This document shows, in pieces, positions 21,067 through 32,067 of a stretch of DNA of 64,000 bases (the first letter of the stretch is position 1; every line of letters starts with the position of its first letter). Source of the DNA: a phage; sequence record PX092659.1. One strand, given 5' to 3'. Made by a program: the position numbers and the translations under genes. Under the pieces are notes generated by a model that saw nothing but the letters and a program-made list of their open reading frames with translations, was not told where the DNA came from and did no database searches.

Positions 21067-21090
21067 TACCCGCATGTAACATCTGAAATA

Positions 21091-21126: not shown

Positions 21127-21141
21127 TATTTAAGATAAAAG

Positions 21142-21390: not shown

Positions 21391-21807
21391 TTAGGAGTTA
21401 TTACCACCATTTTGAGCTTTTGCAACTTGGCTTTGGCAGAAGCTATTAAACTTACCCATAAGTGATACAAGCTGTTTCCCATCCTCTGTCTTTGCGAAGT
21501 CTTCGAAAAGGGCTAGTACTGCCTGTCCTTCCGCAGAAACCTGCGGTTGTTGGGTTTGTTGCTGAACTTGCTGCTGAGGCACCTGTTGCTGCATTTGTTG
21601 AGGCATTTGCGACTGCCCGCTCATTTGCTGCATCATTTGCATAGGACTCACACTTCCAGGGTTTTGCTGGAGTTGTTGCTGCATCTGTTGCGCTTCTGCT
21701 AAACGCTGTTGCAATTGTTGTAAGTAGGGGTTATCCAGACCCGGAATGGGCTGCTGGGAGCCCATACTTTGATTAAGTCCGTTATTTACAAAACCATATT
21801 TACTCAT
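21391..21807 (-). CDS. Q-rich low-complexity protein (138 aa)
   Basis: Long Gln/Met-rich stretches; convergent with SPFH gene. Confidence 0.5.
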   Translation of the reverse strand: MSKYGFVNNGLNQSMGSQQPIPGLDNPYLQQLQQRLAEAQQMQQQLQQNPGSVSPMQMMQQMSGQSQMPQQMQQQVPQQQVQQQTQQPQVSAEGQAVLALFEDFAKTEDGKQLVSLMGKFNSFCQSQVAKAQNGGNNS

Positions 21808-21828
21808 AATGGGCTCCTCCCCTTAATA

Positions 21829-22821
21829 TTAAGCCGGCAGTTTAGCCTGCAGACCAGCCAGAGTCTGAGTGATAGCACCAAGACTTACAGCGATTTGATT
21901 AATTACCTGACCGTTAGCACCGTTACCCGCAGCGATTGCTTCACGTAGGCGACATGCATCTAACTCATCCTGAATACGAGCAGTAGTTACACCAGCGATA
22001 GCAGTCTGAAGTTCACAGCAACATTCAGCGATCTGACGTTCCAGAGAGTTCTGGTTAGCACACATCTGAGCCTGAACAGCGGCAAACTGGTTATTAGTTT
22101 GTAAAGTCTGCTGGAAAGCGATCTGTGCAGAATCAAACTTATCTTGTGCACGAGCTATCTGATTAGCTGCGAAAGATTGATCAATCTGGCGAGAAAGATC
22201 GAACTGACCCTGAATAACGTTGCGAGTTTCCTGACAGATCTGATTAGACAGATTAGCACCTGTACCATAGATCGTAGTTAGTACAGACTGAGTATCACGG
22301 CTCTGGTTTTGGGATGTCTGGCTAAACCCATTGTTAACTGCGCTTAAAACAGCTCCAGTACCCTGGTTAGCTTCTGTACGAGTAGTGTTAATAGCTGCTA
22401 GAATACTAGCGGTATCTTGGTTCTGAAGTACTGCATCAACTGCGGTACCATCACCAACTACACCACGTCCACCGAATCCACCGAAACCACCGAATCCGCC
22501 TGTTAATAGAGCACCGATTAGGATAGCTCCGAATAGTCCCATACCTTCACCACCGAAAGCACCTGCGTTTGCTGGGTAACCACCCAGTAGGCCAGGGAAG
22601 CCACTAGTAAATACGTTTACTGGTTCTTGCATTTTATGTTTTCCATATTTATGACAATGTTCATCGTCATCTTCTTCATCATCGTGTTCACGATGTTTTT
22701 CTTCGTAGGCTCTGACCTTCTCCCACTTTTTCTTATCTGATTCCTCGTGACGGTGCAGTTCTGCTGCAACGCTAGCGACGGTCTCAGGACTCTTAGCTAC
22801 TTCTTCTGTCATTTTTGACAC
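21829..22821 (-). CDS. membrane protein with His/acidic N-terminus and glycine-zipper TM segment (330 aa)
   Basis: GAILIGALLTGGFGGFGGFGG segment then Q/N/A/T-rich domain with CCC motif; RBS AGGAGG upstream on minus strand. Confidence 0.55.
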   Translation of the reverse strand: MSKMTEEVAKSPETVASVAAELHRHEESDKKKWEKVRAYEEKHREHDDEEDDDEHCHKYGKHKMQEPVNVFTSGFPGLLGGYPANAGAFGGEGMGLFGAILIGALLTGGFGGFGGFGGRGVVGDGTAVDAVLQNQDTASILAAINTTRTEANQGTGAVLSAVNNGFSQTSQNQSRDTQSVLTTIYGTGANLSNQICQETRNVIQGQFDLSRQIDQSFAANQIARAQDKFDSAQIAFQQTLQTNNQFAAVQAQMCANQNSLERQIAECCCELQTAIAGVTTARIQDELDACRLREAIAAGNGANGQVINQIAVSLGAITQTLAGLQAKLPA

Positions 22822-23018
22822 CTCCTAGTATATAGAAAATGTGTGTCTCTTTGATCACTCATCCATAACATATACTTTACACTACCCCAGCGAAAATGTC
22901 AAGGGGTCTTTAAAAATTGCCCCTGAATTTTTAGTGGGGTCACAAATTTTGGTCCTCACCATTTATCTGCTATCCTTAAGTGCCCTATGATTTTCCTCTA
23001 AAAAGTTAAAAAATTTGA

Positions 23019-23047
23019 TTGCTTGAATGCTAAATTCTCTGTATAAT
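23019..23047 (+). promoter_or_regulatory. T5-type promoter
   Basis: TTGCTT-17-TATAAT. Confidence 0.65.
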
Positions 23048-23077
23048 ATATCTATAAATTTGAAAGAGGAACCAAAT

Positions 23078-23596
23078 ATGAATGTTGATGAGCTAACACA
23101 GCACCTCTTATCTAGAGGATTTGATACAGATAAATATCATTGCTGGTTAAGTCCGGAAGGATGGCTAACAGTCCCGTTGTATGACTTCTCTGGGATGTTG
23201 AGGGGCTATCAAACTTATAATCCTTCTGCTCCAAAAGGTCATGGTAAGTGCCCCTTTGAAGCTAAATACTTTACTTATTCTACTACCCAGTGTGTATGGG
23301 GACTAGAAACTCTCAATGGAGATGAAAAAGTAGTATTGATTGCTGAATCTGTATTTAAGGCAGTTGCGTTACATAATGCTGGTTATCCAGCCCTAGCAAT
23401 GTTGGGTTCTTCTCCAGGAAAAGCGTTATTAAAGCAACTGAAATTACTACCTTTTAAATTGGTAGCTGTCGGAGATAATGATCCTGCGGGTGAAAAATTT
23501 GCTAGAAAATTAAACGGCTTTGTTTCTCCCGTAGATGTGGATGAGATGTCTACCGAAAACTTGAAAAATTTTCTTGCTATGAAGCTAAATTTCTAA
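23078..23596 (+). CDS. small Toprim-domain-like protein
   Basis: Start MNVDELTQ after GAGG RBS; VVLIAESVFKA...LVAVGDNDPAGEKF resembles Toprim E...DxD. Confidence 0.5.
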   Translation: MNVDELTQHLLSRGFDTDKYHCWLSPEGWLTVPLYDFSGMLRGYQTYNPSAPKGHGKCPFEAKYFTYSTTQCVWGLETLNGDEKVVLIAESVFKAVALHNAGYPALAMLGSSPGKALLKQLKLLPFKLVAVGDNDPAGEKFARKLNGFVSPVDVDEMSTENLKNFLAMKLNF

Positions 23597-23602
23597 TATA
23601 AT
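23574..23602 (+). promoter_or_regulatory. T5-type promoter embedded in the 3' end of the upstream CDS
   Basis: TTGCTA-17-TATAAT directly upstream of tRNA-Ser/tRNA-Met. Confidence 0.6.
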
Positions 23603-23617
23603 ATATCTTATAAATTC

Positions 23618-23706
23618 GGAAGAATAGCATAACGGTATTGCAGCAGATTGCTAATCTGTCGGCTTGAAATATAGCCTTGTGGGTTCGATTCCCACTTCTT
23701 CCGCCA
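23618..23706 (+). tRNA. tRNA-Ser (anticodon GCT), class II
   Basis: Acceptor ggaagaa/ttcttcc, anticodon loop ttgctaa, long variable arm, T-arm gtggg-ttcgatt-cccac, CCA. Confidence 0.75.
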
Positions 23707-23712
23707 AACATA

Positions 23713-23787
23713 GGGTCGGTAGCTTAAAGTTAAAGCGGTGGCCTCATAAGCTAACGAGTAGGAGTTAGATTCTCCTCCGACCCACCA
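23713..23787 (+). tRNA. tRNA with CAT anticodon (Met, fMet or Ile-lysidine)
   Basis: Acceptor gggtcgg/ccgaccc, anticodon loop ctcataa, T-loop ttagatt, CCA. Confidence 0.65.
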
Positions 23788-23801
23788 ATTAGGTACTGCG
23801 T

Positions 23802-24203
23802 ATGGAAAAGGTTGAATTTGAGTACTTTGGAGTTATTTTAATTGTACACTTAAATGGTACAATAGAAACTAAAGATAGAATAATAACACAACGAAATCAA
23901 TATGGCGAGTATACTAGAACTATAAAAGGAAAGGTACTGTCTCCACGTTGCAATGGTAAATCTGGGTATTTTCAGGTGAAGATTTGCAATAAGGGATTAG
24001 GTAAAAATGAGTATGTGCACAGACTCGTATGGATGGCTTTCAACGGTGAAATACCGGAAGGCTATGAAATAGAGCACAAAGATGATGATAAGTCTAATAA
24101 TGCTTTACCTAACCTAGAATTATTCACAAGAAAGCAGAATATGGACAAAGTCTTAAATAAGATGACTAGAGATTCTCTAGGTCGTTTTGAAAAACTTAAC
24201 TAG
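23802..24203 (+). CDS. HNH homing endonuclease
   Basis: VHRLVWMAFNGEIPEGYEIEHKDDDKSNN...NLELFTRKQN (HNH_3-type). Confidence 0.7.
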   Translation: MEKVEFEYFGVILIVHLNGTIETKDRIITQRNQYGEYTRTIKGKVLSPRCNGKSGYFQVKICNKGLGKNEYVHRLVWMAFNGEIPEGYEIEHKDDDKSNNALPNLELFTRKQNMDKVLNKMTRDSLGRFEKLN

Positions 24204-24211
24204 GAGACTAT

Positions 24212-24397
24212 ATGTCTAAGTTTCAAGAACTCAAGCAAGAGCTAGAAGAATGTGCCTGCCCTGAGTGTAGAGGAATTGGTGAAAGTTCTGATGCAGAAGC
24301 AGGAGATACTTTTTGCAATATCTGGGTTTGCCCAACTTGCAATGGTACAGGTATTAATCCTAACTGCGGTATTTCCCTAGATATTGAGCGAGGATAA
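24212..24397 (+). CDS. small zinc-ribbon protein (61 aa)
   Basis: CxxC...CxxC (CPEC...CPTC). Confidence 0.45.
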   Translation: MSKFQELKQELEECACPECRGIGESSDAEAGDTFCNIWVCPTCNGTGINPNCGISLDIERG

Positions 24398-24498
24398 TAC
24401 CTGTGAAACTAAAAGATTATTATATTGGTTGGTTTGTGGGACTAGTAGTAGTATTTTCACTAGGCTATAATATGTATCAACTAATAAACTGATTACAT

Positions 24499-24575
24499 GG
24501 GGGTGTAATCGAATTGGCATAGGTACTGGACTTAAAATTCAGGTTTTGTGGGTTCGAATCCCACCACCCCTACCA
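24499..24575 (+). tRNA. tRNA with TAA anticodon (Leu by anticodon) but class I architecture
   Basis: Acceptor gggggtg/cacccct, anticodon arm ctgga-cttaaaa-ttcag, 5-nt variable loop, T-arm gtggg-ttcgaat-cccac, CCA. Confidence 0.55.
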
Positions 24576-24590
24576 AATTAAGGAAATAAG

Positions 24591-24758
24591 ATGTATAGAC
24601 ATCCACCTCCGCCAACACGTCGTTCCAGAGAAGTTATCCTCATGGAGTTGACTAAAAACTTCAAGGCAACTCTTGAAGATAGAGATTTAGGCACGGATGA
24701 AGACATTGATTTTATTTGTAGACTATTAAAGATGAAACTGGAGAAACAACATGGCTAA
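24591..24758 (+). CDS. small hypothetical protein (55 aa)
   Basis: ATG after AAGGAAA; below ORF-track cutoff. Confidence 0.3.
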   Translation: MYRHPPPPTRRSREVILMELTKNFKATLEDRDLGTDEDIDFICRLLKMKLEKQHG

Positions 24759-24957
24759 TCCTGAAATTACCGCACAACGTTTCATGCTTAAAGGCATGAT
24801 TGCTGAAGCAGGTATGACTCAAGAGGTTGCAGACTTTCATAAGCAATTTCTTGATATTATAACTCTAGCTAAAGAGACTGGAGAAAAAGAACACGGAGCA
24901 GCAATTATGGCTATATCTCTTATTAGTCTAGACTTGGCTGAAGAATCTGGAGTTTAG
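24751..24957 (+). CDS. hypothetical protein (68 aa)
   Basis: ORF in plus-strand array. Confidence 0.45.
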   Translation: MANPEITAQRFMLKGMIAEAGMTQEVADFHKQFLDIITLAKETGEKEHGAAIMAISLISLDLAEESGV

Positions 24958-24977
24958 CTCCTCCAAACAGAATTTTT

Positions 24978-25007
24978 AAAAATGTACTTGCCTTTTGCTT
25001 TAAATTT
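24978..25007 (+). promoter_or_regulatory. T5-type promoter
   Basis: TTGCCT-18-TATAAT. Confidence 0.55.
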
Positions 25008-25047
25008 CTGATATAATAGTTATATAAATTGATGAAGGAGTTAACGA

Positions 25048-25323
25048 ATGCAAAATCGTGTTATAGCAGCTGGTATTGAAAGTGCAATCTGTAAATCCTG
25101 GGAAGGCTGGGAAGGTGAGATTGAATGGCTTTATTTCTATGATGTAGAACTTCTGCCGGAAGTTAAAGCTAAATGTGTTGAAGCTGGCATGGCTCCAGAT
25201 GCAAAAGCTGATATTGATATTTCAATGTCTGAACTTAAAGGTCGTGTAATTACTGTTAGTGATGAGGGCGAAGAAGTCTTCGAACTTCCATTCTCCTTAA
25301 TTGTCACTCCTAAGTTCGACTAA
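25048..25323 (+). CDS. hypothetical acidic protein (91 aa)
   Basis: ORF with GGAG RBS. Confidence 0.5.
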   Translation: MQNRVIAAGIESAICKSWEGWEGEIEWLYFYDVELLPEVKAKCVEAGMAPDAKADIDISMSELKGRVITVSDEGEEVFELPFSLIVTPKFD

Positions 25324-25359
25324 CTAATACAGCACTGAGCAAGTTCTTTAAAATTTGAC

Positions 25360-25389
25360 TTGCTCAGTGCTATAAAACTTGATATAATA
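25360..25389 (+). promoter_or_regulatory. T5-type promoter overlapping a terminator-like inverted repeat
   Basis: TTGCTC-18-TATAAT; 13-bp inverted repeat agcactgagcaag/cttgctcagtgct (25331-25370) spans the -35. Confidence 0.55.
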
Positions 25390-25520
25390 GTTATCTAATT
25401 TGGAAAGTTCTTTTTAAGGTAGTTCCTACTTTAGTAGAGTAAATTTTTGGCAGATGGCCCCACCATTTTACCGATAACTCCTAGTCAGTGCGGCAACACT
25501 GGCTACCTTAAAGAGAATTT

Positions 25521-25608
25521 GGGCGTTTATTCCGTAAGTGGTAGCGGAGGGGATTGTAAATCCCTGGTCATTGCGACTCGAGTGGTTCGACTCCATTAAC
25601 GCCCACCA
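25521..25608 (+). tRNA. tRNA-Tyr (anticodon GTA), class II
   Basis: Acceptor gggcgtt/aacgccc, anticodon arm gggga-ttgtaaa-tccct, long variable arm, CCA. Confidence 0.75.
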
Positions 25609-25615
25609 AATTTAA

Positions 25616-25692
25616 GTCCTGTTAGACAAACGGGTAAAGTCACTACCCTTTCAAGGTAGGATTTGCGGGTTCGATCCCCGCACAGGACGCCA
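25616..25692 (+). tRNA. tRNA-Glu (anticodon TTC)
   Basis: Acceptor gtcctgt/acaggac, anticodon arm ctacc-ctttcaa-ggtag, T-arm gcggg-ttcgatc-cccgc, CCA. Confidence 0.75.
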
Positions 25693-25701
25693 ATTTCTGC
25701 A

Positions 25702-25777
25702 TTCCTAGAGTGTTACTGGACAGCATGTCGGTCTCCAAAACCGTACGGTCTAGGTTCGAGTCCTAGTAGGTTTGCCA
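25702..25777 (+). ncRNA. tRNA-like element (anticodon arm compatible with CCA/Trp; acceptor stem defective)
   Basis: T-arm ctagg-ttcgagt-cctag plus encoded GCCA end, but only 3-5 of 7 acceptor pairs. Confidence 0.3.
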
Positions 25778-25783
25778 AAATTT

Positions 25784-25858
25784 GCACCTTTAGCTGAGAT
25801 GGATTAGCGCTTGCCTGAAGAGCTTGAGAGGTTCGTTCGATACGAACAGGGTGCACCA
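25784..25858 (+). tRNA. tRNA with GAA anticodon (Phe?), weak anticodon stem
   Basis: Acceptor gcacctt/agggtgc, T-arm gttcg-ttcgata-cgaac, CCA; anticodon stem has two U-U mismatches. Confidence 0.45.
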
Positions 25859-25875
25859 AATTGAAGGAGCTGCTG

Positions 25876-26148
25876 ATGCATCCTGAAAACTTCTTTATTT
25901 ACTGCGCGGATAAGTCGCTGAAACGTAGAATTAACAAAGTCTATCATTATCGTGCTAGTCAACAGCCTTATGTATATGCTTTTGACGGTGATCACATTCC
26001 ACTAGAACAATTATCTTGTGATTACATGATATTGAAGAACTTTGACGAGACGAAGATCTCAAGCGTTCATAATCGACAGAATCCCTTAACGTGGAAATAT
26101 AAGAAGAAAAAGAAAGGCATCAAATTCTTAAAAAATGTAGTTGCTTAG
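25876..26148 (+). CDS. hypothetical protein (about 90 aa)
   Basis: Listed ORF 25861..26148 trimmed to first ATG; ends inside next promoter. Confidence 0.4.
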   Translation: MHPENFFIYCADKSLKRRINKVYHYRASQQPYVYAFDGDHIPLEQLSCDYMILKNFDETKISSVHNRQNPLTWKYKKKKKGIKFLKNVVA

Positions 26149-26169
26149 TTTCTAAAAGTTCTGTATAAT
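26141..26169 (+). promoter_or_regulatory. T5-type promoter
   Basis: TTGCTT-17-TATAAT. Confidence 0.65.
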
Positions 26170-26217
26170 AATTACATAAATTGAACTGGAGAAGCAACAT
26201 GACAGAACAAGATAAAC

Positions 26218-26293
26218 CGACCGTTGGCTGAATGGCTTAGGCGAAGGATTGCAAATCCTTTTTATGTGAGTTCAAATCTCATGCGGTCGTCCA
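26218..26293 (+). tRNA. tRNA-Cys (anticodon GCA)
   Basis: Acceptor cgaccgt/gcggtcg, anticodon arm aagga-ttgcaaa-tcctt, T-arm gtgag-ttcaaat-ctcat, CCA. Confidence 0.75.
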
Positions 26294-26300
26294 AATTTTA

Positions 26301-26383
26301 GGGTCGTTAGCCAAGCGGTTTGGCGGCGGATTGTTAATCCGTGTCGAAAGACAACGTAGGTTCGAATCCTACACGGCCCGCCA
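26301..26383 (+). tRNA. tRNA with GTT anticodon (Asn by anticodon) and a 13-nt variable arm
   Basis: Acceptor gggtcgt/acggccc, D-stem gcca/tggc, anticodon arm gcgga-ttgttaa-tccgt, variable arm gtcgaaagacaac, CCA. Confidence 0.6.
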
Positions 26384-26485
26384 AATTCTGTGTAGAGTTA
26401 AGTAAACCGGTAGCCAACCAGCTATCATTGCTGACATCGAATTCAGCCACAGATACCATTTTCATTAATAACTGAGGAAACAAGC

Positions 26486-26671
26486 ATGTCCAAGAATGTA
26501 ATTGCGCAGCTAGAAGTTCATCGTGATAGCACTATTAACAATATTGAAGTTGAAAAGAAATACATCGAAGAACTTAAACACGATATACTAGTAAGTCTCA
26601 ATCGTCTTAATGTACGAAAAGAGTTTCTTAAAGAACTTAATGCAGCTATTGAAAAACTCAAAGCTGAGTAA
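26486..26671 (+). CDS. hypothetical protein (61 aa)
   Basis: ORF with GAGGAAA RBS. Confidence 0.45.
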   Translation: MSKNVIAQLEVHRDSTINNIEVEKKYIEELKHDILVSLNRLNVRKEFLKELNAAIEKLKAE

Positions 26672-26680
26672 ATGAATTAT

Positions 26681-26757
26681 GCGACCGGGGCTGGCTTGGT
26701 AATGGTACTCCCCTGTCACGGGAGAGAATGTGGGTTCGAATCCCATCGGTCGCGCCA
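26681..26757 (+). tRNA. tRNA-Asp (anticodon GTC)
   Basis: Acceptor gcgaccg/cggtcgc, anticodon arm ctccc-ctgtcac-gggag, T-arm gtggg-ttcgaat-cccat, CCA. Confidence 0.8.
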
Positions 26758-26774
26758 AATAAGGTAGGTTAGCT

Positions 26775-26927
26775 ATGGAATGTAGGGAGTTTACTCCAGA
26801 AGAGATAGAGCAGATAAAAGAATCTGCTATGAAAAATGCTAGAATATCTCTGTCACTGGAAGGTATCATTATTAGTGATGTAAACTTTGAAAAAATCAAA
26901 GCCATAGCTGATGAACTGGAAAAGTAA
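26775..26927 (+). CDS. small hypothetical protein (50 aa)
   Basis: ATG after AAGGTAGG; below ORF-track cutoff. Confidence 0.3.
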   Translation: MECREFTPEEIEQIKESAMKNARISLSLEGIIISDVNFEKIKAIADELEK

Positions 26928-26933
26928 TTTAAT

Positions 26934-27009
26934 ACATCCATAGCTCAATGGTTAGAGCTACCGCCTCTTAAGCGGAGGGTTCTAGGTTCAAGTCCTAGTG
27001 GGTGTACCA
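26934..27009 (+). tRNA. tRNA-Lys (anticodon CTT)
   Basis: Acceptor acatcca/tgggtgt, D-stem gctc/gagc, anticodon loop ctcttaa (one A-A mismatch at stem base), T-arm ctagg-ttcaagt-cctag, CCA. Confidence 0.55.
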
Positions 27010-27034
27010 AATTAATTTAGTATGAGAATATACT

Positions 27035-27382
27035 ATGCGTAATGCTAAAGAAGAGCTGTTACTCGCCTTAAAAAATACCAATTCTAAAGTTAAGTGTATT
27101 AAAATAGAATTTGGGTATTATGGGGACAAAAAAGTCTGGGTATTACCTTTAGGTTATACAGAAGAAGACATTGAGGGGTTTCTTAATAACCTAGACTTTG
27201 AATATGATTCTGGATACGGTGGACAATTACTTTATGGTAATGTATGGTTTGCCGATGGAACTTGGCTAGAACGTGGGGAATATGATGGTGCTGAGTGGTG
27301 GGAATACAAGGCTACACCAGCAATCCCAGAGGAATGCCGAACAATTAATGGTGAAGTAGATAATACTTTACGGTTAAACTAA
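27035..27382 (+). CDS. hypothetical protein (115 aa)
   Basis: ORF in plus-strand array. Confidence 0.5.
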   Translation: MRNAKEELLLALKNTNSKVKCIKIEFGYYGDKKVWVLPLGYTEEDIEGFLNNLDFEYDSGYGGQLLYGNVWFADGTWLERGEYDGAEWWEYKATPAIPEECRTINGEVDNTLRLN

Positions 27383-27504
27383 TAAAATTTCAGTGCAGAA
27401 CACGGAGCTAGCAATTCGGAAGTGCTGACTCATGATAAGCTGCCTATGTACTTGCAAAGCGGTCGTGTCCAAGACTCGGACTCTTGCACTGAAAACAATC
27501 AAAC

Positions 27505-27623
27505 ATTCTAGCGTGGTTGATGGGGAAACCAGCTTGGCTAGGGCAGAAGCTCGTTCGATTCGAGTGAAAGAATGGTTCTCGTAAGTCCGCACAAGTGATA
27601 GCAGGTTCGAGTCCTGTCTAGAA
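27505..27623 (+). ncRNA. tRNA-like RNA with a ~105-nt body
   Basis: 7-bp acceptor-like helix attctag/ctagaat closing a region that ends with canonical T-arm gcagg-ttcgagt-cctgt. Confidence 0.3.
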
Positions 27624-27774
27624 TGATACTATAAAGTTTACTTATTGAGTAGGTTCCGATAGATCGGCGGGTCTATTCTGGCAGTTAAGAGAGGTCTCGC
27701 AAACTTCTTTGTCAGCCGTGGGGTTGGTAGCCTCCAGGTGGCCTACACAATAAGTAAATTTATTAAAAATTCAT

Positions 27775-27803
27775 TTGCTATTTCGCTTAATTCTCGGTAT
27801 AAT
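27775..27803 (+). promoter_or_regulatory. T5-type promoter
   Basis: aaaaattcaTTTGCTA-17-TATAAT. Confidence 0.7.
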
Positions 27804-27835
27804 ATATCTTATAAAGTGTTGAGAAGGAAAGCAAA

Positions 27836-28033
27836 ATGAAAAAAGTTTTACTGCTGTCTGTATTCCTACTTACTGGTTGTTTTAAACTTGACTCAACCAT
27901 TAATAAAGAGTATGAATTTGCTAAAAATTTCTGTGGCGGAGAGAGTAATATAAAGAATTTCTACATATATAGTACAATTCCTAGTACCGTTTATTGTGTA
28001 GACGGACGAATTATTAATATTCCTCCACAATAA
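27836..28033 (+). CDS. small lipoprotein (65 aa)
   Basis: Signal peptide with lipobox LLTGC. Confidence 0.5.
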   Translation: MKKVLLLSVFLLTGCFKLDSTINKEYEFAKNFCGGESNIKNFYIYSTIPSTVYCVDGRIINIPPQ

Positions 28034-28042
28034 AAGAATTAA

Positions 28043-28118
28043 CAGTGCGTAGCGCAGTTGGTAGCGTGGGAGCCTTGGATGCTTCGGGTCGCAGGTTCGA
28101 GTCCTGCCGCACTGACCA
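28043..28118 (+). tRNA. tRNA-Pro (anticodon TGG)
   Basis: Acceptor cagtgcg/cgcactg, anticodon arm ggagc-cttggat-gcttc, T-arm gcagg-ttcgagt-cctgc, CCA. Confidence 0.8.
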
Positions 28119-28124
28119 AACAAT

Positions 28125-28202
28125 TGCGGGTTAGATCTCTGGTAGAGATCGCTAGTCTCATAAGCTAGAAAGAGGTAGGTTCGATTCCTGCACCCGCTTC
28201 CA
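28125..28202 (+). tRNA. tRNA with CAT anticodon (Met, fMet or Ile-lysidine), U-U mismatch at 1:72
   Basis: Acceptor tgcgggt/acccgct, D-stem gatc/gatc, anticodon arm ctagt-ctcataa-gctag, T-arm gtagg-ttcgatt-cctgc, CCA. Confidence 0.6.
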
Positions 28203-28222
28203 TTTTAATAGAGGGTTTCGAA

Positions 28223-28390
28223 ATGAAAGTATTTCGATTAGTAGTAAGTGACAAACGTTTAGGTAAGAATACCTCAAAATCCTTACTTGCTCATTATGGA
28301 AAAGATGAGAAAGAAGTAATGGCGGAGTTTGGGATTAATCACCCTTACTTGAAAGTTCACTCTATTAAAGAAGTATATAATGGTTACTAA
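28223..28390 (+). CDS. small hypothetical protein (55 aa)
   Basis: ATG after GAGGG; between tRNA genes; below ORF-track cutoff. Confidence 0.3.
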   Translation: MKVFRLVVSDKRLGKNTSKSLLAHYGKDEKEVMAEFGINHPYLKVHSIKEVYNGY

Positions 28391-28391
28391 T

Positions 28392-28470
28392 AGATCGCTA
28401 GCTCAATAGGTTTAGTAGCATCCGACTTTTAATCGGAAGGTTCTGGGTTCGAGTCCCAGGCGATCTACCA
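28392..28470 (+). tRNA. tRNA-Lys (anticodon TTT)
   Basis: Acceptor agatcgc/gcgatct, anticodon arm tccga-cttttaa-tcgga, T-arm ctggg-ttcgagt-cccag, CCA. Confidence 0.75.
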
Positions 28471-28488
28471 ATTTCAAGAAAAACGCAG

Positions 28489-28517
28489 TTGCTTAATGCG
28501 TAATTTCTTGTTACAAT
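28489..28517 (+). promoter_or_regulatory. T5-type promoter
   Basis: TTGCTT-17-TACAAT; drives a non-coding transcript. Confidence 0.6.
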
Positions 28518-28745
28518 ATTTATATAAATTGATGAGGAGAAATCCTCGTCATAGTTCACTAAGGTATTAGCTCGACCTAGGACTGGCTGCCAAAAAGCAC
28601 GATCCCTACGATTCGGGAGAAGTTCTAGATTAGTCCACTAGATTCAGCGGCAACTGAATAGTGTATCGGGTTTGCGAGATGACGCGGTTCCTTCCGCTCG
28701 AAGCGAAGGTGCTGTAGTTACGCCGAGCTAATAGCCTTAGTAAAC

Positions 28746-28820
28746 TAAAGAATTTGGGCGAATAGTGTCAGCGGGAGCACACCAGACTTGCAATCTGGTA
28801 GGGAGGGTTCGAGTCCCTCT
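28746..28820 (+). tRNA. tRNA-Ala (anticodon TGC)
   Basis: Acceptor gggcgaa/tttgtcc (G-U pairs), anticodon arm ccaga-cttgcaa-tctgg, T-arm gaggg-ttcgagt-ccctc, CCA. Confidence 0.75.
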
Positions 28821-28825
28821 TTGTC

Positions 28826-28902
28826 CACCAAATACGCGTGATTGATGGAATTGGCATACATACCGTCCTTAGAAGTCGGGTTTTGAGGGTTCGAATCCCT
28901 TG
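28826..28902 (+). tRNA. tRNA with TAG anticodon (Leu by anticodon) but class I architecture
   Basis: Acceptor gcgtgat/gtcacgc, anticodon arm ccgtc-cttagaa-gtcgg (one mismatch), 5-nt variable loop, T-arm gaggg-ttcgaat-ccctt, CCA. Confidence 0.55.
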
Positions 28903-29014
28903 TCACGCACCAAATTTGATGGTCAGAGTAAATTAAACCTACTATCTCGGTTGAGCTGTTTTAATGGGTTCGAATCCCAGCGAGGCGTAACTGCCTGGCG
29001 TGATAGAGGCATCA

Positions 29015-29105
29015 TCTTATTACTGGAAGAGCAAATCGAATTGGCGACGAAAACCGCTTGGAAAGTGGCTGACTGGTAAAACGGCTTGAGAGTTCAAATC
29101 TCTCC
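29015..29105 (+). tRNA. tRNA-Ser (anticodon GGA), class II
   Basis: Acceptor ggaagag/ctcttcc, anticodon loop ttggaaa, ~18-nt variable arm, T-arm gagag-ttcaaat-ctctc, CCA. Confidence 0.65.
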
Positions 29106-29134
29106 TCTTCCGCCAAACACTTGAGGTAATAATA

Positions 29135-29482
29135 ATGTTAGCAAAAGATAAAGCTCTAGAGTTTTTAGCATCTTTAGATGAAGATAAGATTATAGATGCT
29201 GCTGAAAAAGCTGGAATGCCCGATTTAACATATCTGGAACGTGCTATTATTGCTCGTGATAAACTACAGAAAGAGTTTGCTATTGCCCAGGAGGAGTTTT
29301 ATACTCGCTATAACGCTCTTACTAAGCAAATTGAAAATGAGTGTTCCCATACTTGGGGAGTAACAGAAAACCTAGGTAATGATCACGATGGCTGGTCTAA
29401 AGTAAAAATTACCTACTATCATCGTAGGACTTGTAAAATTTGTGGAAAAGTAGAAGATTTCACTAGTACGAGTGACTATTAG
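29135..29482 (+). CDS. hypothetical protein (115 aa), C-terminal zinc-ribbon-like
   Basis: CSHTW...CKIC motif; RBS TGAGGTAA. Confidence 0.5.
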   Translation: MLAKDKALEFLASLDEDKIIDAAEKAGMPDLTYLERAIIARDKLQKEFAIAQEEFYTRYNALTKQIENECSHTWGVTENLGNDHDGWSKVKITYYHRRTCKICGKVEDFTSTSDY

Positions 29483-29495
29483 TATAATAAATACT

Positions 29496-29585
29496 AGAAG
29501 ATAGGACGTAGTGGTACGTAACTGGTCTTGAAAACCAGCCCGCTGTAGCGATACGGTGATGGTTCGACTCCATTATCTTCTGCCA
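29496..29585 (+). tRNA. tRNA-Ser (anticodon TGA), class II
   Basis: Acceptor agaagat/atcttct, anticodon arm ctggt-cttgaaa-accag, long variable arm, T-arm gatgg-ttcgact-ccatt, CCA. Confidence 0.8.
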
Positions 29586-29605
29586 ATTAACTATAAGGAA
29601 GTCTT

Positions 29606-29779
29606 ATGAGCAAAACAGTTACTGTAACAATGAAGGACGGTAAAAAATTTAAAGCATGTCTTCATGAAACAGATAAGGGGTGGATGGCTTATTTGCCACA
29701 CCTAGATTCCACCGGGTACGGAATGACCCAACGTGAAGCTATTGTTGATGCTTTAAATGAGGCTTCTGCTGGTTTATAA
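29606..29779 (+). CDS. small HicB/UPF0150-like protein (57 aa)
   Basis: GWMAYLPHLDSTGYGMTQREAIVDALNEA resembles HicB-fold antitoxins; RBS AAGGAAG; no HicA partner seen. Confidence 0.4.
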   Translation: MSKTVTVTMKDGKKFKACLHETDKGWMAYLPHLDSTGYGMTQREAIVDALNEASAGL

Positions 29780-30148
29780 AAAATTCTTGAAGTATGCCGG
29801 AATCGGTAGACGGGGCTGCCTAAAAGGTTTATAGGGAACATCCACTCCCTGCAACATACCTCATAAAGCGGCTGAGATAAATGGTCTATCTCGTGAAGGT
29901 TCAAGTCCTTCTGCTTCTTGATACATCTATGGCTCAAAGTGTAACGGTGCTATTTGATGCTCTTGGTAAGACTTCCCCGACATGCGTTCGGGAGTAAGCT
30001 GCTAAGACTAGAGTAGAAGAGTTTCTGAGAGCCGCCACAATTGAAAATTCGTACTCGTCTTGAGCTGCGTGCAATAGGAGATAACTTGATTAGTATTCTA
30101 GAACATGCTAATTGAGGATGGTTTCGCTAACCCTGCGAGTTTTCAATT

Positions 30149-30225
30149 GTGGCTATATCATAATTGGTTAATGATCCTGATTGTGAATCAGGCCTATGTG
30201 GATTCGAATTCCACTAGCCACCCCA
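30149..30225 (+). tRNA. tRNA-His (anticodon GTG)
   Basis: Acceptor gtggcta/tagccac, D-stem tcat/atga, anticodon arm cctga-ttgtgaa-tcagg, T-arm gtgga-ttcgaat-tccac, discriminator C, CCA; position -1 is T not G. Confidence 0.7.
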
Positions 30226-30250
30226 AATTAACTTAAATAGGAAATAAAAT

Positions 30251-30448
30251 ATGGCTGATTTCTGCAAACAATGCTCCATTGATATGTGGGGCAGAGATAC
30301 TGGTGATCTTTCTGGTTTGATTACAGAAGCTGAGGTCAAAGAAGGTTATGGTGCAGTTGTGATTTGCGAAGGATGCGGAGTTATTCGAGTAGATCATGAA
30401 GGCAAACGTTTAAAAGAACCGGAAAACTTAGGAGAAACAAATGAGTAA
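30251..30448 (+). CDS. small zinc-ribbon protein (65 aa)
   Basis: CKQC...CEGC motif. Confidence 0.45.
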   Translation: MADFCKQCSIDMWGRDTGDLSGLITEAEVKEGYGAVVICEGCGVIRVDHEGKRLKEPENLGETNE

Positions 30449-30677
30449 TGCTTTAATTAGTGAAATTATGTTAACACGTCTTGCAGAACTGCAAACTCTT
30501 CGAGATGAATCTCAGAATAACTTAGCCTATCATAAACAGATGGTAGATACTCTTACTACTCGTATTGAAACTTACGAGCGTGATATTGCAGCATTACAGG
30601 CTCTTTTCTCAGTATCAGCACCAGATACTTTAGAGCAGCCTGTTGTATCTCAGCCAGTAGAAACAGCATCTAGTTAA
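30441..30677 (+). CDS. hypothetical protein (78 aa)
   Basis: Start overlaps upstream stop. Confidence 0.45.
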   Translation: MSNALISEIMLTRLAELQTLRDESQNNLAYHKQMVDTLTTRIETYERDIAALQALFSVSAPDTLEQPVVSQPVETASS

Positions 30678-30686
30678 TAGCATTTT

Positions 30687-30762
30687 TGGAGTGTAGATCA
30701 ATTGGCAGATCGTCGGCCTCTGACTCCGAAGGTTCCTGGTTCGATCCCAGGCACTCCAGCCA
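30687..30762 (+). tRNA. tRNA-Gln (anticodon CTG)
   Basis: Acceptor tggagtg/cactcca, anticodon loop ctctgac, T-arm cctgg-ttcgatc-ccagg, CCA. Confidence 0.7.
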
Positions 30763-30768
30763 AATAAT

Positions 30769-30844
30769 TGGAGAGTAGTGTAACGGTTAGCACAACGGCC
30801 TTTGACTCCGTTAATGGTAGGTTCGATTCCTCCTTCTCCAGCCA
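30769..30844 (+). tRNA. tRNA-Gln (anticodon TTG)
   Basis: Acceptor tggagag/ttctcca, anticodon loop ctttgac, T-loop ttcgatt, CCA; near-duplicate of the previous gene. Confidence 0.7.
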
Positions 30845-30852
30845 AGTAATAA

Positions 30853-30928
30853 GCGGTTAAGCACACGGGTTGTGTCGCAGGCCTTCCAAGCCTCGCTGAG
30901 TAGGGTTCGATTCCCTCTAGCCGCTCCA
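30853..30928 (+). tRNA. tRNA-Gly (anticodon TCC)
   Basis: Acceptor gcggtta/tagccgc, D-stem caca/tgtg, anticodon loop cttccaa, T-loop ttcgatt, CCA; some stem mismatches. Confidence 0.6.
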
Positions 30929-30944
30929 ACTTTAAGGAAACGTT

Positions 30945-31196
30945 ATGCACGTTTTTGAGTTTCGTAATAAAAGTACCGATAAACGAGTTATTGTTATTGG
31001 AGAAACATACCGAGCATACGAACAAACTGACGGCTCTGTCATCCTGAATGATGAGAAAGGAGGTTTTAGCTTTTATCCAGAAGAACCTTATGAAGAGTTT
31101 CGAAAACAATTTAACCTAGACTGGAGAAAGCATTTAAACACTGTTGCTTCATCTGTAGTATTGCCAACTACCAGTACTGTACTATCTAATGGCTGA
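30945..31196 (+). CDS. hypothetical protein (83 aa)
   Basis: ORF with AAGGAAA RBS. Confidence 0.45.
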   Translation: MHVFEFRNKSTDKRVIVIGETYRAYEQTDGSVILNDEKGGFSFYPEEPYEEFRKQFNLDWRKHLNTVASSVVLPTTSTVLSNG

Positions 31197-31353
31197 TAAC
31201 CTAAAAGTCAAGATCGACAAACAAAAGAAACGTGTAGAAGTAGAGATTGGTGAAGAACGTGTAGCCTTCACCTTTGAATTCCTACAACAAATGGCAATGG
31301 TAGTTATGACTGATAAGTCTCCTGTTATTGAAAAAGAAATCCCGTTGAAATAA
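31189..31353 (+). CDS. small hypothetical protein (54 aa)
   Basis: ATG overlapping upstream stop; followed by hairpin cccgtt-gaaata-acggg. Confidence 0.35.
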   Translation: MADNLKVKIDKQKKRVEVEIGEERVAFTFEFLQQMAMVVMTDKSPVIEKEIPLK

Positions 31354-31363
31354 CGGGATCATC

Positions 31364-31438
31364 GCTCCTAAAGCATTGCTGGCGATGCAGTTGCCTTGTA
31401 AGCATCTGAACCGGGTTCGATTCCTGGTGGGAGCACCA
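31364..31438 (+). tRNA. tRNA-Thr (anticodon TGT)
   Basis: Acceptor gctccta/tgggagc, D-stem gcat/atgc, anticodon loop cttgtaa, T-arm ccggg-ttcgatt-cctgg, CCA. Confidence 0.65.
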
Positions 31439-31453
31439 AATTTAAAAATTCAT

Positions 31454-31482
31454 TTGCTTTCTCTCTTATTTATTGTTATAAT
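31454..31482 (+). promoter_or_regulatory. T5-type promoter
   Basis: aaaaattcaTTTGCTT-17-TATAAT. Confidence 0.7.
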
Positions 31483-31512
31483 ATTTATATAAATTAATGA
31501 GAGGGAAACCAA

Positions 31513-31803
31513 ATGAAACGTTATCTTTCTGTTGTGTTCCAAACTGGTGGTCAACGCTATACCTATGAATTTCCTAGCTCTTGGAAGATCAAAGAAGGTG
31601 ATCAAGTAGTAGTGTTAACACCGCGAGATGGATATAAAGTAGTAACGGTTAAACAAGTATTCCCAAAAGATCATGAACCAGCTAAAGGCATTCGCTATAA
31701 GATGATTCATGGTGTGGTTCGTCAAGTACCACGAACTGAGGTAGAAGTAGATAAGACTGGAGAAGCTAAATTCCGTTATACTTCTTACCTAGATAGTGTG
31801 TGA
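31513..31803 (+). CDS. hypothetical protein (96 aa)
   Basis: ORF with GAGGGAAA RBS. Confidence 0.5.
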   Translation: MKRYLSVVFQTGGQRYTYEFPSSWKIKEGDQVVVLTPRDGYKVVTVKQVFPKDHEPAKGIRYKMIHGVVRQVPRTEVEVDKTGEAKFRYTSYLDSV

Positions 31804-31818
31804 TGTAAATATTTTAAT

Positions 31819-31895
31819 GCTTCGGTAGCTTAGCGATCTAAAGCACTCGGCTGATAACCGAGAGATCGGGGGTTTAAATCCCTCCCGGAGTACCA
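31819..31895 (+). tRNA. tRNA-Ile (anticodon GAT)
   Basis: Acceptor gcttcgg/ccggagt, D-stem gctt/aagc, anticodon arm ctcgg-ctgataa-ccgag, T-arm ggggg-tttaaat-ccctc, CCA. Confidence 0.8.
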
Positions 31896-31991
31896 AATTT
31901 AGGAATTAAGACTATGCGTCCAGGAAAGTTTAAAAAAGCTAGTTGGTCTAAAGAGTATAAAGAATACTTACTTAGTCTAATAAAACATAAT

Positions 31992-32067
31992 AGTTAGTTG
32001 GCAGAGTGGTTATGCACCTCCTTCATACGGAGCGACTACAGTGGTTCAAATCCACTACTAACTACCA
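31992..32067 (+). tRNA. tRNA with CAT anticodon (third copy; Met, fMet or Ile-lysidine)
   Basis: Acceptor agttagt/actaact, anticodon loop ttcatac, T-arm agtgg-ttcaaat-ccact, CCA. Confidence 0.65.

What the first reader, a model, noticed from the sequence alone, without database searches (positions are those of the whole stretch)
30034..30153. Perfect 14-bp long-range complement whose 3' arm overlaps the 5' acceptor strand of tRNA-His
gccacaattgaaaa (30034-30047) is the exact reverse complement of ttttcaattgtggc (30140-30153). The downstream arm includes the first nucleotides of the tRNA-His acceptor stem (30149-), so the precursor could fold into an alternative structure that sequesters the tRNA 5' end, possibly affecting processing or the G-1 status of tRNA-His.
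Basis: seen in the sequence. Interest (0 to 1): 0.45.

Follow-up and report, generated by a model that had tools for sequence, protein, structure and literature searches.

The report
Processing helix around phage T5 RNA III
The inverted repeat is real and conserved: it is the closing helix of a long-annotated small stable RNA (RNA III) of T5-like phages, and it probably serves as an RNase III cutting site that releases RNA III and frees the neighbouring tRNA-His.

Summary
The window comes from a T5-like phage (Demerecviridae). The repeat is confirmed: 14 perfect bp, 18 bp with one G.U, and 20 bp as RNA (30034-30053 / 30134-30153). About 0.065 such repeats are expected by chance per window.

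GenBank records for T5 and BF23 annotate this 106-nt segment as stable RNA III (30042-30147, 100% identical here). RNA I lies upstream and ends ...GAGCC-G-CCA at 30037. tRNA-His lies downstream (G1 = 30149).

- **Helix composition:** the inner 12 bp are RNA III's terminal stem. The outer 8 bp pair RNA I's G-CCA plus the CAAU spacer with AUU plus G1-C5 of tRNA-His.
- **Conservation:** T5-like phages carry four unrelated RNAs in this slot. All keep the invariant GCCACAAUUGA/UCAAUUGUGGC and a 20-21 bp helix with compensated inner pairs.
- **Ends:** the annotated RNA III ends leave a 2-nt 3' overhang around a two-fold symmetric CAAU^UG duplex. RNA 2H, a second stable RNA of the cluster, shows the same geometry. 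This is the RNase III signature.
- **Folding:** in the uncut precursor model the helix wins over the tRNA-His acceptor stem by 9.5 kcal/mol.

RNase III cleavage is inferred, not shown. The object is already known, so interest is moderate.

The parts
30034..30053 (+). 5' arm of the 20-bp precursor helix. G30034 is the discriminator-like base of RNA I, 30035-30037 its CCA, 30038-30041 the CAAU spacer, and 30042-30053 the 5' end of RNA III.
   Evidence: boundaries from the BF23 and T5 annotation mapped
30134..30153 (+). 3' arm of the helix. 30134-30147 is the 3' end of RNA III, U30148 is position -1 of tRNA-His, and 30149-30153 are G1-C5 of the tRNA-His acceptor strand.
30038..30043 (+). CAAUUG, which pairs with CAAUUG at 30144-30149 to form a two-fold symmetric duplex. 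The annotated ends imply cuts at 30041^30042 and 30147^30148 (CAAU^UG on both strands), giving 2-nt 3' overhangs. This is the inferred RNase III site.
   Evidence: Annotated ends placed on the helix. The core is invariant in all 9 arm variants.
30144..30149 (+). Second CAAUUG copy, the partner strand of the symmetric core. It ends at G1 of tRNA-His.
30042..30147 (+). Stable RNA III (106 nt), 100% identical to annotated rnaIII of T5 and BF23. It has a 12-bp terminal stem, three internal hairpins and a 2-nt 3' overhang (AU).
29931..30037 (+). Stable RNA I (107 nt). Its closing stem GGCUC/GAGCC (29931-29935 / 30029-30033) is followed by G-CCA, a tRNA-like end. In the fold this stem abuts the long helix with no spacer on the 5' strand.
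30148..30225 (+). tRNA-His(GUG). G1 = 30149, C73 = 30222, and CCA is encoded (30223-30225). Position -1 is U30148, which T5 and BF23 records include in a 78-nt tRNA-His feature.
29786..29930 (+). RNA1, a tRNA-like RNA of unknown function. It is the upstream member of the same run of abutting RNA genes.
   Evidence: (Rfam tRNA 25.2 bits, with a 45-nt insertion in the anticodon loop)
29459..29488 (+). Sigma-70-like promoter match (TTCACT-18-TATAAT) upstream of tRNA-Ser. It is a candidate start of the polycistronic precursor. This is a consensus match only.

Best explanation
The inverted repeat is an RNA-level helix in the polycistronic precursor RNA1 - RNA I - RNA III - tRNA-His of a T5-like phage.

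Its inner 12 bp (30042-30053 / 30134-30145) are the terminal stem of the known stable RNA III. Its outer 8 bp pair the G-CCA end of RNA I plus the CAAU spacer with AUU plus G1-C5 of tRNA-His.

The helix forms as soon as the 3' arm is transcribed, before the tRNA-His 3' strand exists. It therefore holds the tRNA 5' strand and RNA I's CCA end in a 20-bp duplex.

Host RNase III then makes a staggered double cut in the symmetric core (CAAU^UG on both strands, at 30041^30042 and 30147^30148). This would have three consequences:
1. RNA III is released with a blunt-paired 5' end and a 2-nt 3' overhang, which suits a stable RNA.
2. RNA I is left with a 4-nt trailer that 3' exonucleases can trim back to CCA.
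3. The remaining 6-bp outer duplex is weak enough to let tRNA-His fold, with a one-nucleotide leader (U-1).

Shown here: the helix, its conservation and covariation, the identity with annotated RNA III, and the geometry of the annotated ends.

Inferred: that RNase III is the enzyme, and the order of events.
For: 1. Identity. BF23 (AJ604530) and T5 (NC_005859) annotate RNA1, RNA I, RNA III and tRNA-His at exactly these positions. The window is identical to both across RNA III.

2. Conservation. Four unrelated inserts occupy the slot between RNA I and tRNA-His. The CCA-to-G1 distances are 111, 126, 138 and 68 nt. Their interiors are found in 283, 55, 15 and 65 GenBank phage records, once per genome. 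All keep the invariant GCCACAAUUGA/UCAAUUGUGGC and a 20-21 bp helix. On 9 distinct arm variants, 98.3% of cells pair and 8 of 20 pairs change on both sides. 0 of 500 shuffles reach these values, and slid registers pair only 30-48%.

3. End geometry. The annotated 5' end U30042 pairs with A30145, and the annotated 3' end is U30147. That is a 2-nt 3' overhang inside a longer duplex. A 4-nt gap (CAAU) is left after RNA I. RNA 2H, the second stable RNA of the cluster, has the same geometry: U28565.G28734, 3' end C28736, and a stalk continuing 13 bp outward.

4. Fit to RNase III rules. A double cut leaving 2-nt 3' overhangs in a helix of about 22 bp is the established pattern (PMC6212723, PMC3867540). 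At least 11 bp are needed from cut to helix end (PMC1540722), and the inner side has 12-13 bp in all four classes. G:C pairs act as antideterminants at proximal-box positions 2 and 4. Those positions are A:U or U:A on both sides of the dyad here, and invariant. RNA I's 5-bp stem abuts the outer end and could stack to give about 25 bp.

5. Need for cleavage. In the model the helix has P about 1.0 and the tRNA acceptor stem P about 0. The cloverleaf-forced structure is 9.5 kcal/mol worse.

6. Precedent. E. coli RNase III takes part in maturation of phage T4 tRNAs (PMC4810235, its refs 47 and 48).
Against: - There are no cleavage data. I could not read the original T5 and BF23 RNA papers, so the experimental basis of the annotated ends is unverified.
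- The two pairs between the proposed cuts are A:U and U:A. In vivo E. coli sites usually have at least one G:C there (PMC6212723).
- Proximal-box position 3 is G:C on both sides, whereas A:U is optimal in the minimal substrate (PMC1540722).
- The outer half is only 7-8 bp unless RNA I's stem stacks on it.
- The outer 11 bp are invariant, so they carry no covariation signal. They consist of elements constrained for other reasons: CCA, the AAUU-type spacers common to this cluster, and the tRNA-His acceptor sequence, which equals E. coli's. In three loci the outermost pair is lost (A.C).
- A 12-bp terminal stem is also what an RNase P-type (acceptor/T-arm-like) substrate would have.
Confidence: 0.55

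Rival explanations
1. The helix is functionally only the terminal stem of RNA III, giving stability against exonucleases. The ends are made by RNase P (5' end of tRNA-His, possibly 5' end of RNA III via a 12-bp acceptor/T-arm-like minihelix), RNase E at AU-rich spacers, and exonucleases. The outward 8-bp extension is a by-product of generic sequences: CCA, a self-complementary AAUU-type spacer, and the UGG at tRNA-His positions 2-4.
For: All 24 tRNAs of the cluster have encoded CCA followed by AAUU-like trailers, so CCA-CAAUU is not special. AAUU is self-complementary. The outer 11 bp never vary, so they give no covariation evidence. The outermost pair is lost in 3 loci. The inner stem is 12-13 bp, the length of a tRNA acceptor/T stack. 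RNA I just upstream has a tRNA-like end.
Against: The annotated RNA III 3' overhang is 2 nt, not the NCCA-type 4 nt seen in RNA I. The same 2-nt geometry recurs in RNA 2H, within a stalk that extends 13 bp beyond the ends. In the model the helix buries both AU-rich spacers in duplex, which suits a single-strand nuclease poorly, and prevents the tRNA-His acceptor stem that RNase P needs. The cut sites are two-fold symmetric, CAAU^UG on both strands.
Confidence: 0.27
2. The helix is a regulatory alternative structure that competes with the tRNA-His acceptor stem. It would delay or tune tRNA-His maturation, or change its -1 status, without being a nuclease site itself.
For: The helix is predicted to dominate over the acceptor stem in the precursor by 9.5 kcal/mol. 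It is conserved in all cassette classes. tRNA-His has an unusual U at -1.
Against: No second, mutually exclusive conserved structure or ligand or protein site is evident. The stable RNA ends fall inside the helix, so it is cut. After excision of RNA III the sequestering strand is gone, so any 'regulation' reduces to the processing order.
Confidence: 0.1
3. This is a DNA-level element. The arms would be terminal inverted repeats, and the duplicated palindrome CAATTG a target-site duplication, of small mobile cassettes. Alternatively they would be a recombination or homing-endonuclease site that drives cassette exchange.
For: Four unrelated inserts sit at exactly the same joints, CAATTGA...TCAATTG. 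RNA I variants and cassettes occur in mosaic combinations. HNH homing endonuclease genes lie nearby in T5 and SE24.
Against: Each cassette occurs once per genome and only at this site. The inner arm sequences differ between cassettes, but the pairs are compensated with G.U wobbles. That preserves an RNA helix, not a DNA repeat. Exchange is explained by homologous recombination in the conserved flanks.
Confidence: 0.05
4. This is a chance complementarity or an intrinsic terminator.
For: A weak terminator-like consensus match lies at 30123-30139 followed by UUUUCAAUUG.
Against: The expected number of such repeats is 0.065 per window. The helix is conserved with compensation. The U-run lies inside the helix, not after it. 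tRNA-His and the downstream genes have no promoter match of their own between 30053 and 30149.
Confidence: 0.02

Closest known systems
rnaIII (RNA III) of bacteriophages T5 and BF23, annotated as 'stable RNA with unknown functions' (NC_005859 T5s01; AJ604530)
   Same: It has the same position (between rnaI and tRNA-His) and the same 106-nt sequence (100% identity). It therefore has the same terminal stem, which is the repeat reported here.
   Different: There is no difference in the object. The records give no structure, processing pathway or function. They do not mention the extension of the stem into RNA I's CCA end and the tRNA-His 5' strand.
RNase III processing stalks of bacterial rRNA precursors (16S and 23S) and E. 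coli double-cleavage RNase III sites
   Same: Sequences flanking a stable RNA pair over about two helical turns. A staggered double cut leaves 2-nt 3' overhangs and releases the enclosed RNA (PMC6212723, PMC3867540, PMC4810235).
   Different: Here the stalk is only 20 bp. The enclosed RNA is about 60-130 nt. The outer part of the stalk is made of the functional ends of two other RNAs (RNA I's CCA and the tRNA-His 5' strand). The cut products are the mature ends, with no further trimming of RNA III. RNase III dependence is not demonstrated.
Phage T7 R1.1-type RNase III hairpins and the minimal substrate uR1.1
   Same: An 11-12 bp helix lies between the cut and the distal end. A:U or U:A pairs occupy proximal-box positions 2 and 4 (PMC1540722).
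   Different: T7 sites are usually cut once, in an internal loop between mRNAs. Here a fully paired, sequence-symmetric core would be cut on both strands. Proximal-box position 3 is G:C.
Phage T4 tRNA cluster with its small stable RNAs (species 1 and 2) and RNase III-assisted tRNA maturation
   Same: The phage tRNA cluster is transcribed as polycistronic precursors that also encode small stable RNAs of unknown function. Host RNase III contributes to maturation (PMC4810235, refs 47 and 48; the details of the T4 RNAs come from my own knowledge).
   Different: There is no sequence relationship. In T4 the RNase III cut lies upstream of a tRNA and is followed by RNase P. Here the proposed cut would itself define position -1 of tRNA-His.
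Bacterial tRNA-His with gene-encoded G-1:C73, processed by RNase P at -2/-1
   Same: The acceptor stem GUGGCUA/UAGCCAC, C73 and encoded CCA match E. coli tRNA-His (the E. coli sequence is from my own knowledge).
   Different: Position -1 is U, not G. The determinants for the non-canonical RNase P cut (G-1 paired to C73; PMC5499578) are therefore absent.

Membership tests
T5/BF23 rnaIII stable RNA gene | Lies between rnaI and tRNA-His in the tRNA gene region of a T5-like phage | tested here: met
   Synteny with the annotated BF23 and T5 records. Coordinates were mapped by alignment.
T5/BF23 rnaIII stable RNA gene | Sequence identity with the annotated rnaIII | tested here: met
   The 111-nt CCA-to-G1 segment is identical in the window, T5 (L002) and BF23 (L001).
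T5/BF23 rnaIII stable RNA gene | Accumulates as a stable RNA of about 106 nt in infected cells | not testable with these tools
   This is only the depositors' annotation ('stable RNA'). The primary papers are not in the held library.
E. coli RNase III double-cleavage substrate | Continuous double helix of about 20-22 bp, with at least 11 bp between a cut and the helix end | tested here: met
   The helix is 20 bp (21 in one class). It has 12-13 bp on the inner side in all four classes. The outer side has 8 bp, plus RNA I's 5-bp stem abutting it. Criteria are from PMC1540722 and PMC3867540.
E. coli RNase III double-cleavage substrate | Product ends staggered with 2-nt 3' overhangs | tested here: met
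   The annotated ends U30042 (paired to A30145) and U30147 leave a 2-nt overhang. RNA 2H shows the same: 28565/28734, end at 28736. The test rests on the deposited annotation.
E. coli RNase III double-cleavage substrate | No G:C or C:G antideterminant at proximal-box positions 2 and 4 | tested here: met
   Inner side: U30042:A30145 (pb4) and A30044:U30143 (pb2). Outer side: U30148:A30039 (pb4) and U30150:A30037 (pb2). All are invariant. I deduced the register from the uR1.1 numbering in PMC1540722.
E. coli RNase III double-cleavage substrate | Preferred pairs: A:U at proximal-box position 3, and at least one G:C between the two cuts in vivo | tested here: not met
   pb3 is G:C on both sides. 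The two central pairs are A30040:U30147 and U30041:A30146. These are preferences, not requirements (PMC1540722, PMC6212723).
E. coli RNase III double-cleavage substrate | Cleavage depends on rnc in vivo, or occurs with purified enzyme | not testable with these tools
   No experimental data were found.
Intrinsic (Rho-independent) terminator | Short GC-rich hairpin followed directly by a U-tract, at the end of a transcription unit | tested here: not met
   The loop is 80 nt. The U-run is inside the 3' arm. tRNA-His follows with no promoter match in between.
Miniature mobile element with terminal inverted repeats and target-site duplication | Multiple dispersed copies sharing the terminal repeats | tested here: not met
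   The arms occur only once in the window. Each cassette occurs once per genome, always at this site.
Canonical bacterial tRNA-His gene | G encoded at -1, pairing with C73 | tested here: not met
   U30148 is at -1 and C30222 at 73. The feature is defined in PMC9976931 and PMC5499578.

The most novel reading that the evidence does not exclude
The invariant, two-fold symmetric CAAU^UG duplex is a dedicated RNase III site with two uses. First, it lets T5-like phages express interchangeable small RNAs from one fixed 'slot'. At least four unrelated RNA III cassettes exist, each supplying its own compensating 12-bp stem. [quoted passage not shown] This would give a tRNA-His carrying U-1 with a 5'-phosphate, which E. 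coli RNase P could not produce because there is no G-1:C73 pair. It would partly replace the missing G-1 identity element for HisRS.
Probability: 0.15. Interest if true: 0.65.

Novelty: already known. Interest (0 to 1): 0.35.

Why it matters
The repeat itself is explained. It is the terminal stem of an RNA gene annotated in T5 and BF23 for about twenty years, so as a discovery it is ordinary.

Three points go beyond the database records and are cheap to test.

1. The annotated ends of two T5 stable RNAs (RNA III and RNA 2H) both have the RNase III signature. This gives a concrete processing pathway for RNAs whose biogenesis and function are listed as unknown.

2. The slot between RNA I and tRNA-His holds four unrelated RNAs in different T5-like phages, all framed by the same invariant helix. 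This suggests a modular expression platform for small phage RNAs. It also marks these RNAs as candidates for host-interaction or anti-defence roles, a current theme for T5 tRNAs.

3. T5-type tRNA-His lacks the encoded G-1 that E. coli HisRS relies on, and its 5' strand is locked in this helix in the precursor. How this tRNA gets a functional 5' end is therefore a real, directly testable question.

Tried and rejected
- **Rfam.** With permissive thresholds on 29400-30700 and on three variant loci, only tRNAs matched. A weak tRNA-like hit corresponds to RNA1, and there were spurious antisense 'Plastid-ycf2' hits on tRNA-His. No family covers RNA I, RNA III or the other cassettes.
- **Coding potential.** ORF 30105-30236 matches phrog_28521 (E = 1e-36). 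Its conserved part is simply the translation of tRNA-His, and its start and ends change with the cassette. I rejected it as an annotation artefact. Two other small ORFs had no PHROG hit.
- **Collection scans.**
  - The viral scan with the RNA I end pattern GAGAGCCRCCACAATTG returned several unrelated contigs (L046-L055). These are chance matches in coding DNA.
  - The metagenome scan with the tRNA-His 24-mer returned two contigs (L043, L045). They contain the 24-mer but no tRNA, so they are not usable as 'no-cassette' controls.
  - No T5-like genome with RNA I directly abutting tRNA-His was found.
- **Literature.** Seven searches found nothing in the held library on processing of T5 RNA I or RNA III, or on a T5 link to RNase III. 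Himeno 1989 (PMC334892) is not held. The supplementary matrix of in vivo RNase III pair preferences (PMC6212723) is also not held, so the helix could not be scored against it.
- **Terminator reading.** Rejected.
- **Dispersed-repeat or mobile-element reading.** Rejected.

Full report
**1.

The sequence at 30034-30047 (gccacaattgaaaa) is the exact reverse complement of 30140-30153 (ttttcaattgtggc). The repeat finder extends the arms to 18 nt, 30034-30051 and 30136-30153. The single mismatch there is a U.G wobble at the RNA level. RNA folding extends the helix to 20 bp, 30034-30053 with 30134-30153.

ARAGORN and Rfam place tRNA-His(GUG) at 30149-30225 (59.9 bits).

In 200 dinucleotide-preserving shuffles of the window, perfect 14-mer inverted repeats with a loop of 200 nt or less averaged 0.065 per window. 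Only 3.5% of shuffles had any. The arms are not repeated elsewhere in the window.

**2. What lies there**

The window is a T5-like phage of the Demerecviridae, with 24 tRNA genes. The region is 98% identical to Salmonella phage vB_Sen_I1 and 94% identical to BF23.

The BF23 tRNA-region record (AJ604530) and the T5 RefSeq record annotate a run of abutting RNA genes here. After alignment they map to the window as follows:

| Feature | Window coordinates | Annotation or note |
|---|---|---|
| RNA1 | 29786-29930 | 'tRNA-like RNA with unknown functions' |
| RNA I | 29931-30037 | 'stable RNA' |
| RNA III | 30042-30147 | 'stable RNA', 106 nt |
| tRNA-His | 30148-30225 | 78-nt feature that begins at the U before G1 |

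The window is 100% identical to T5 and BF23 over RNA III. RNA I has a tRNA-like end: stem GGCUC/GAGCC, then G, then CCA ending at 30037.

The 20-bp helix is therefore composite:
- G30034-A30037 (RNA I's G-CCA) pair with U30150-C30153 (tRNA-His positions 2-5).
- C30038 pairs with G1.
- A30039 pairs with U-1.
- A30040 and U30041 pair with the last two bases of RNA III.
- 30042-30053 pair with 30134-30145. This is the 12-bp terminal stem of RNA III.

RNA III alone folds as that stem plus three hairpins, with a 2-nt 3' tail. Neither Rfam nor the other variant loci give any family for RNA I or RNA III.

The small ORFs over the region are not genes. The one with a PHROG hit (phrog_28521) is the translation of tRNA-His, with variable ends.

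**3. Conservation**

I collected the segment between RNA I and tRNA-His from GenBank phages, IMG/VR and metagenomes. T5-like phages carry four unrelated sequences in this slot:

| Cassette type | CCA-to-G1 distance (nt) | GenBank phage records with the interior |
|---|---|---|
| T5-type (this window) | 111 | 283 |
| chee158/SE24-type | 126 | 55 |
| TrudiGerster-type | 138 | 15 |
| S114-type | 68 | 65 |

Each interior occurs once per genome. All four types keep GCCACAAUUGA...UCAAUUGUGGC unchanged. All four form a total helix of 20-21 bp, with different but compensated inner pairs.

On an alignment of the nine distinct arm variants:
- 98.3% of cells are standard pairs.
- 8 of 20 pairs change on both sides.
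- No shuffle out of 500 reaches the observed values.
- Slid registers pair only 30-48%.

The outer 11 pairs never vary and so say nothing either way. In three loci RNA I's G is A and the outermost pair is lost.

RNA I also has two sequence variants. They combine freely with the cassettes, which indicates module exchange by recombination in the conserved joints.

**4. Mechanism**

*End geometry.* The annotated ends of RNA III are informative. The 5' end U30042 pairs with A30145 and the 3' end is U30147. This is a 2-nt 3' overhang in the middle of a longer duplex. A 4-nt gap (CAAU) is left after RNA I's CCA.

The duplex around the ends, CAAUUG (30038-30043) with CAAUUG (30144-30149), is two-fold symmetric. 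Both strands would be cut at CAAU^UG.

RNA 2H is the other annotated stable RNA of the cluster (window 28565-28736). It shows the same geometry: U28565.G28734, 3' end C28736, in a stalk that continues 13 bp beyond the ends. RNA I, by contrast, has the 4-nt NCCA overhang of a tRNA.

*Fit to RNase III.* A staggered double cut leaving 2-nt 3' overhangs in a helix of about two turns is the hallmark of RNase III (PMC6212723, PMC3867540).
- The minimal requirement of 11 bp between cut and helix end (PMC1540722) is met on the inner side by 12-13 bp in all four cassette classes.
- The two proximal-box positions where G:C pairs block binding or catalysis are A:U or U:A on both sides of the dyad, and invariant.
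- RNA I's 5-bp stem abuts the outer end and could stack on it, giving about 25 bp.

*Features that are not optimal.*
- Proximal-box position 3 is G:C.
- The two central pairs are A:U and U:A, whereas in vivo sites usually include a G:C (PMC6212723).

*Folding model.* Partition-function folding of the precursor gives the helix probability about 1.0 and the tRNA-His acceptor stem about 0 in all four classes. Forcing the cloverleaf costs 9.5 kcal/mol. This is a nearest-neighbour model without tRNA tertiary energy.

The helix can also form before the tRNA's 3' strand is transcribed. I therefore think the helix is a processing stalk:
1. RNase III excises RNA III.
2. RNA I is left with a CAAU trailer for exonucleolytic trimming.
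3. The tRNA-His 5' strand is released.

RNase III involvement in phage T4 tRNA maturation is a precedent (PMC4810235). I rate this mechanism at about 0.55. That the repeat is RNA III's closing helix, selected as RNA structure, is near certain.

**5. Rivals**

- **Terminal stem only (0.27).** RNase P, RNase E and exonucleases would make the ends, and the outer extension would be a by-product of CCA, the AAUU-type spacers shared by all tRNAs of this cluster, and the tRNA-His sequence.
- **DNA-level mobile or recombination element (0.05).** This is disfavoured by single-copy, single-site occurrence and by G.U-compensated pairs.
- **Chance or terminator (0.02).** This is refuted.

**6. The G-1 question**

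The gene has U30148 at -1 opposite C73. The acceptor stem GUGGCUA/UAGCCAC, C73 and encoded CCA otherwise match E. coli tRNA-His (the E. coli sequence is from my own knowledge).

Position -1 in other phage tRNA-His genes:
- U in Klebsiella phage KNP2 and in a Proteus Novosibvirus. I saw no comparable helix upstream of either, by eye only.
- G in phiEa104 and in two Eneladusvirus phages.

E. coli RNase P shifts its cut to -2/-1 only with a G-1:C73 pair. Loss of G-1 lowers HisRS efficiency by more than 100-fold (PMC5499578, PMC9976931).

T5 and BF23 records nevertheless annotate a 78-nt tRNA-His starting at U-1. That is exactly the 5' end an RNase III cut at CAAU^UG would make. This is the basis of the speculative novel reading (probability 0.15). 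I could not verify how the annotated end was determined.

**7. Verdict**

Sequestration of the tRNA 5' strand in the precursor is predicted and the helix is conserved. But the element is the terminal and processing helix of the already annotated stable RNA III, not a stand-alone regulator.
- Novelty of the object: already known.
- Points that go beyond the annotation: the RNase III reading, the four-cassette slot, and the missing G-1.
- Interest: 0.35.

Noticed in passing
window 28552-28747 (RNA 2H = 28565-28736): This is a second annotated stable RNA of the cluster ('RNA 2H' in BF23). It is enclosed by a stalk of about 23 bp. Its annotated ends (U28565 paired to G28734, 3' end C28736) again leave a 2-nt 3' overhang, and the helix continues 13 bp outward. 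This is the same RNase III-like geometry as RNA III.
   Followed up: partly
window 30148 (position -1 of tRNA-His); L034:715, L035:710; L056, L057, L058: T5-type tRNA-His has U, not G, at -1 opposite C73. The same holds in Klebsiella phage KNP2 and a Proteus Novosibvirus. Erwinia phage phiEa104 and two Eneladusvirus phages encode G-1. The canonical bacterial route to G-1 (RNase P cut at -2/-1) should not apply to the T5-type gene.
   Followed up: partly
window 29786-29930: This is RNA1, a class-II-like tRNA look-alike. It has an acceptor stem, D arm, long variable arm and T arm. About 45 extra nt sit in the anticodon loop, including a small hairpin. ARAGORN misses it, and Rfam tRNA scores 25.2 bits, below the threshold of 29. 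T5 and BF23 annotate it as 'tRNA-like RNA with unknown functions'.
   Followed up: no
L003/L004/L044, L006/L016/L033, L007/L023 (segment between RNA I and tRNA-His): Three further RNAs, unrelated in sequence (about 121, 133 and 63 nt), replace T5-type RNA III in the same stalk in other T5-like phages. None has an Rfam match, and most records leave them unannotated. RNA I also exists in two sequence variants that combine mosaically with the cassettes.
   Followed up: partly
window 30105-30236 (+): A 43-aa ORF matches phrog_28521 at E = 1e-36. The family appears to be an annotation artefact. Its conserved core is the translation of tRNA-His, and its start and end change with the flanking cassette. 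Several GenBank records annotate 'hypothetical protein' over RNA I, RNA III or tRNA-His.
   Followed up: yes
window, all 24 tRNA genes (20010-32067): Every tRNA gene encodes its CCA end. Nearly all are followed by an AAUU- or AAAUU-type trailer, and leaders are similarly AU-rich. This may be a shared processing signal, for example for a single-strand endonuclease. It also supplies part of the self-complementary CAAUUG core.
   Followed up: no
window 25331-25371; 19967-20004; 13534-13582; 60144-60182: These are other strong hairpins. One has a 15-bp perfect stem (25331-25371) upstream of tRNA-Tyr. Another is an AU-rich hairpin of about 17 bp ending 6 nt before tRNA-Arg (20010). Two further perfect inverted repeats of at least 14 bp have short loops. 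Their roles (terminators or processing sites) were not examined.
   Followed up: no
window 30149-30223 (-), and the same place in L003, L006, L007: The Rfam 'Plastid-ycf2 5'UTR' hits (about 27 bits, threshold 65.7) on the strand opposite tRNA-His are spurious. They reflect tRNA-derived sequence in that family model.
   Followed up: no
L043, L045 (metagenome contigs Ga0265309, Ga0265303): The 24-mer CAATTGTGGCTATATCATAATTGG occurs in these contigs without any tRNA around it. It is either a chance match or a fragment, and is unrelated to T5-like phages.
   Followed up: partly
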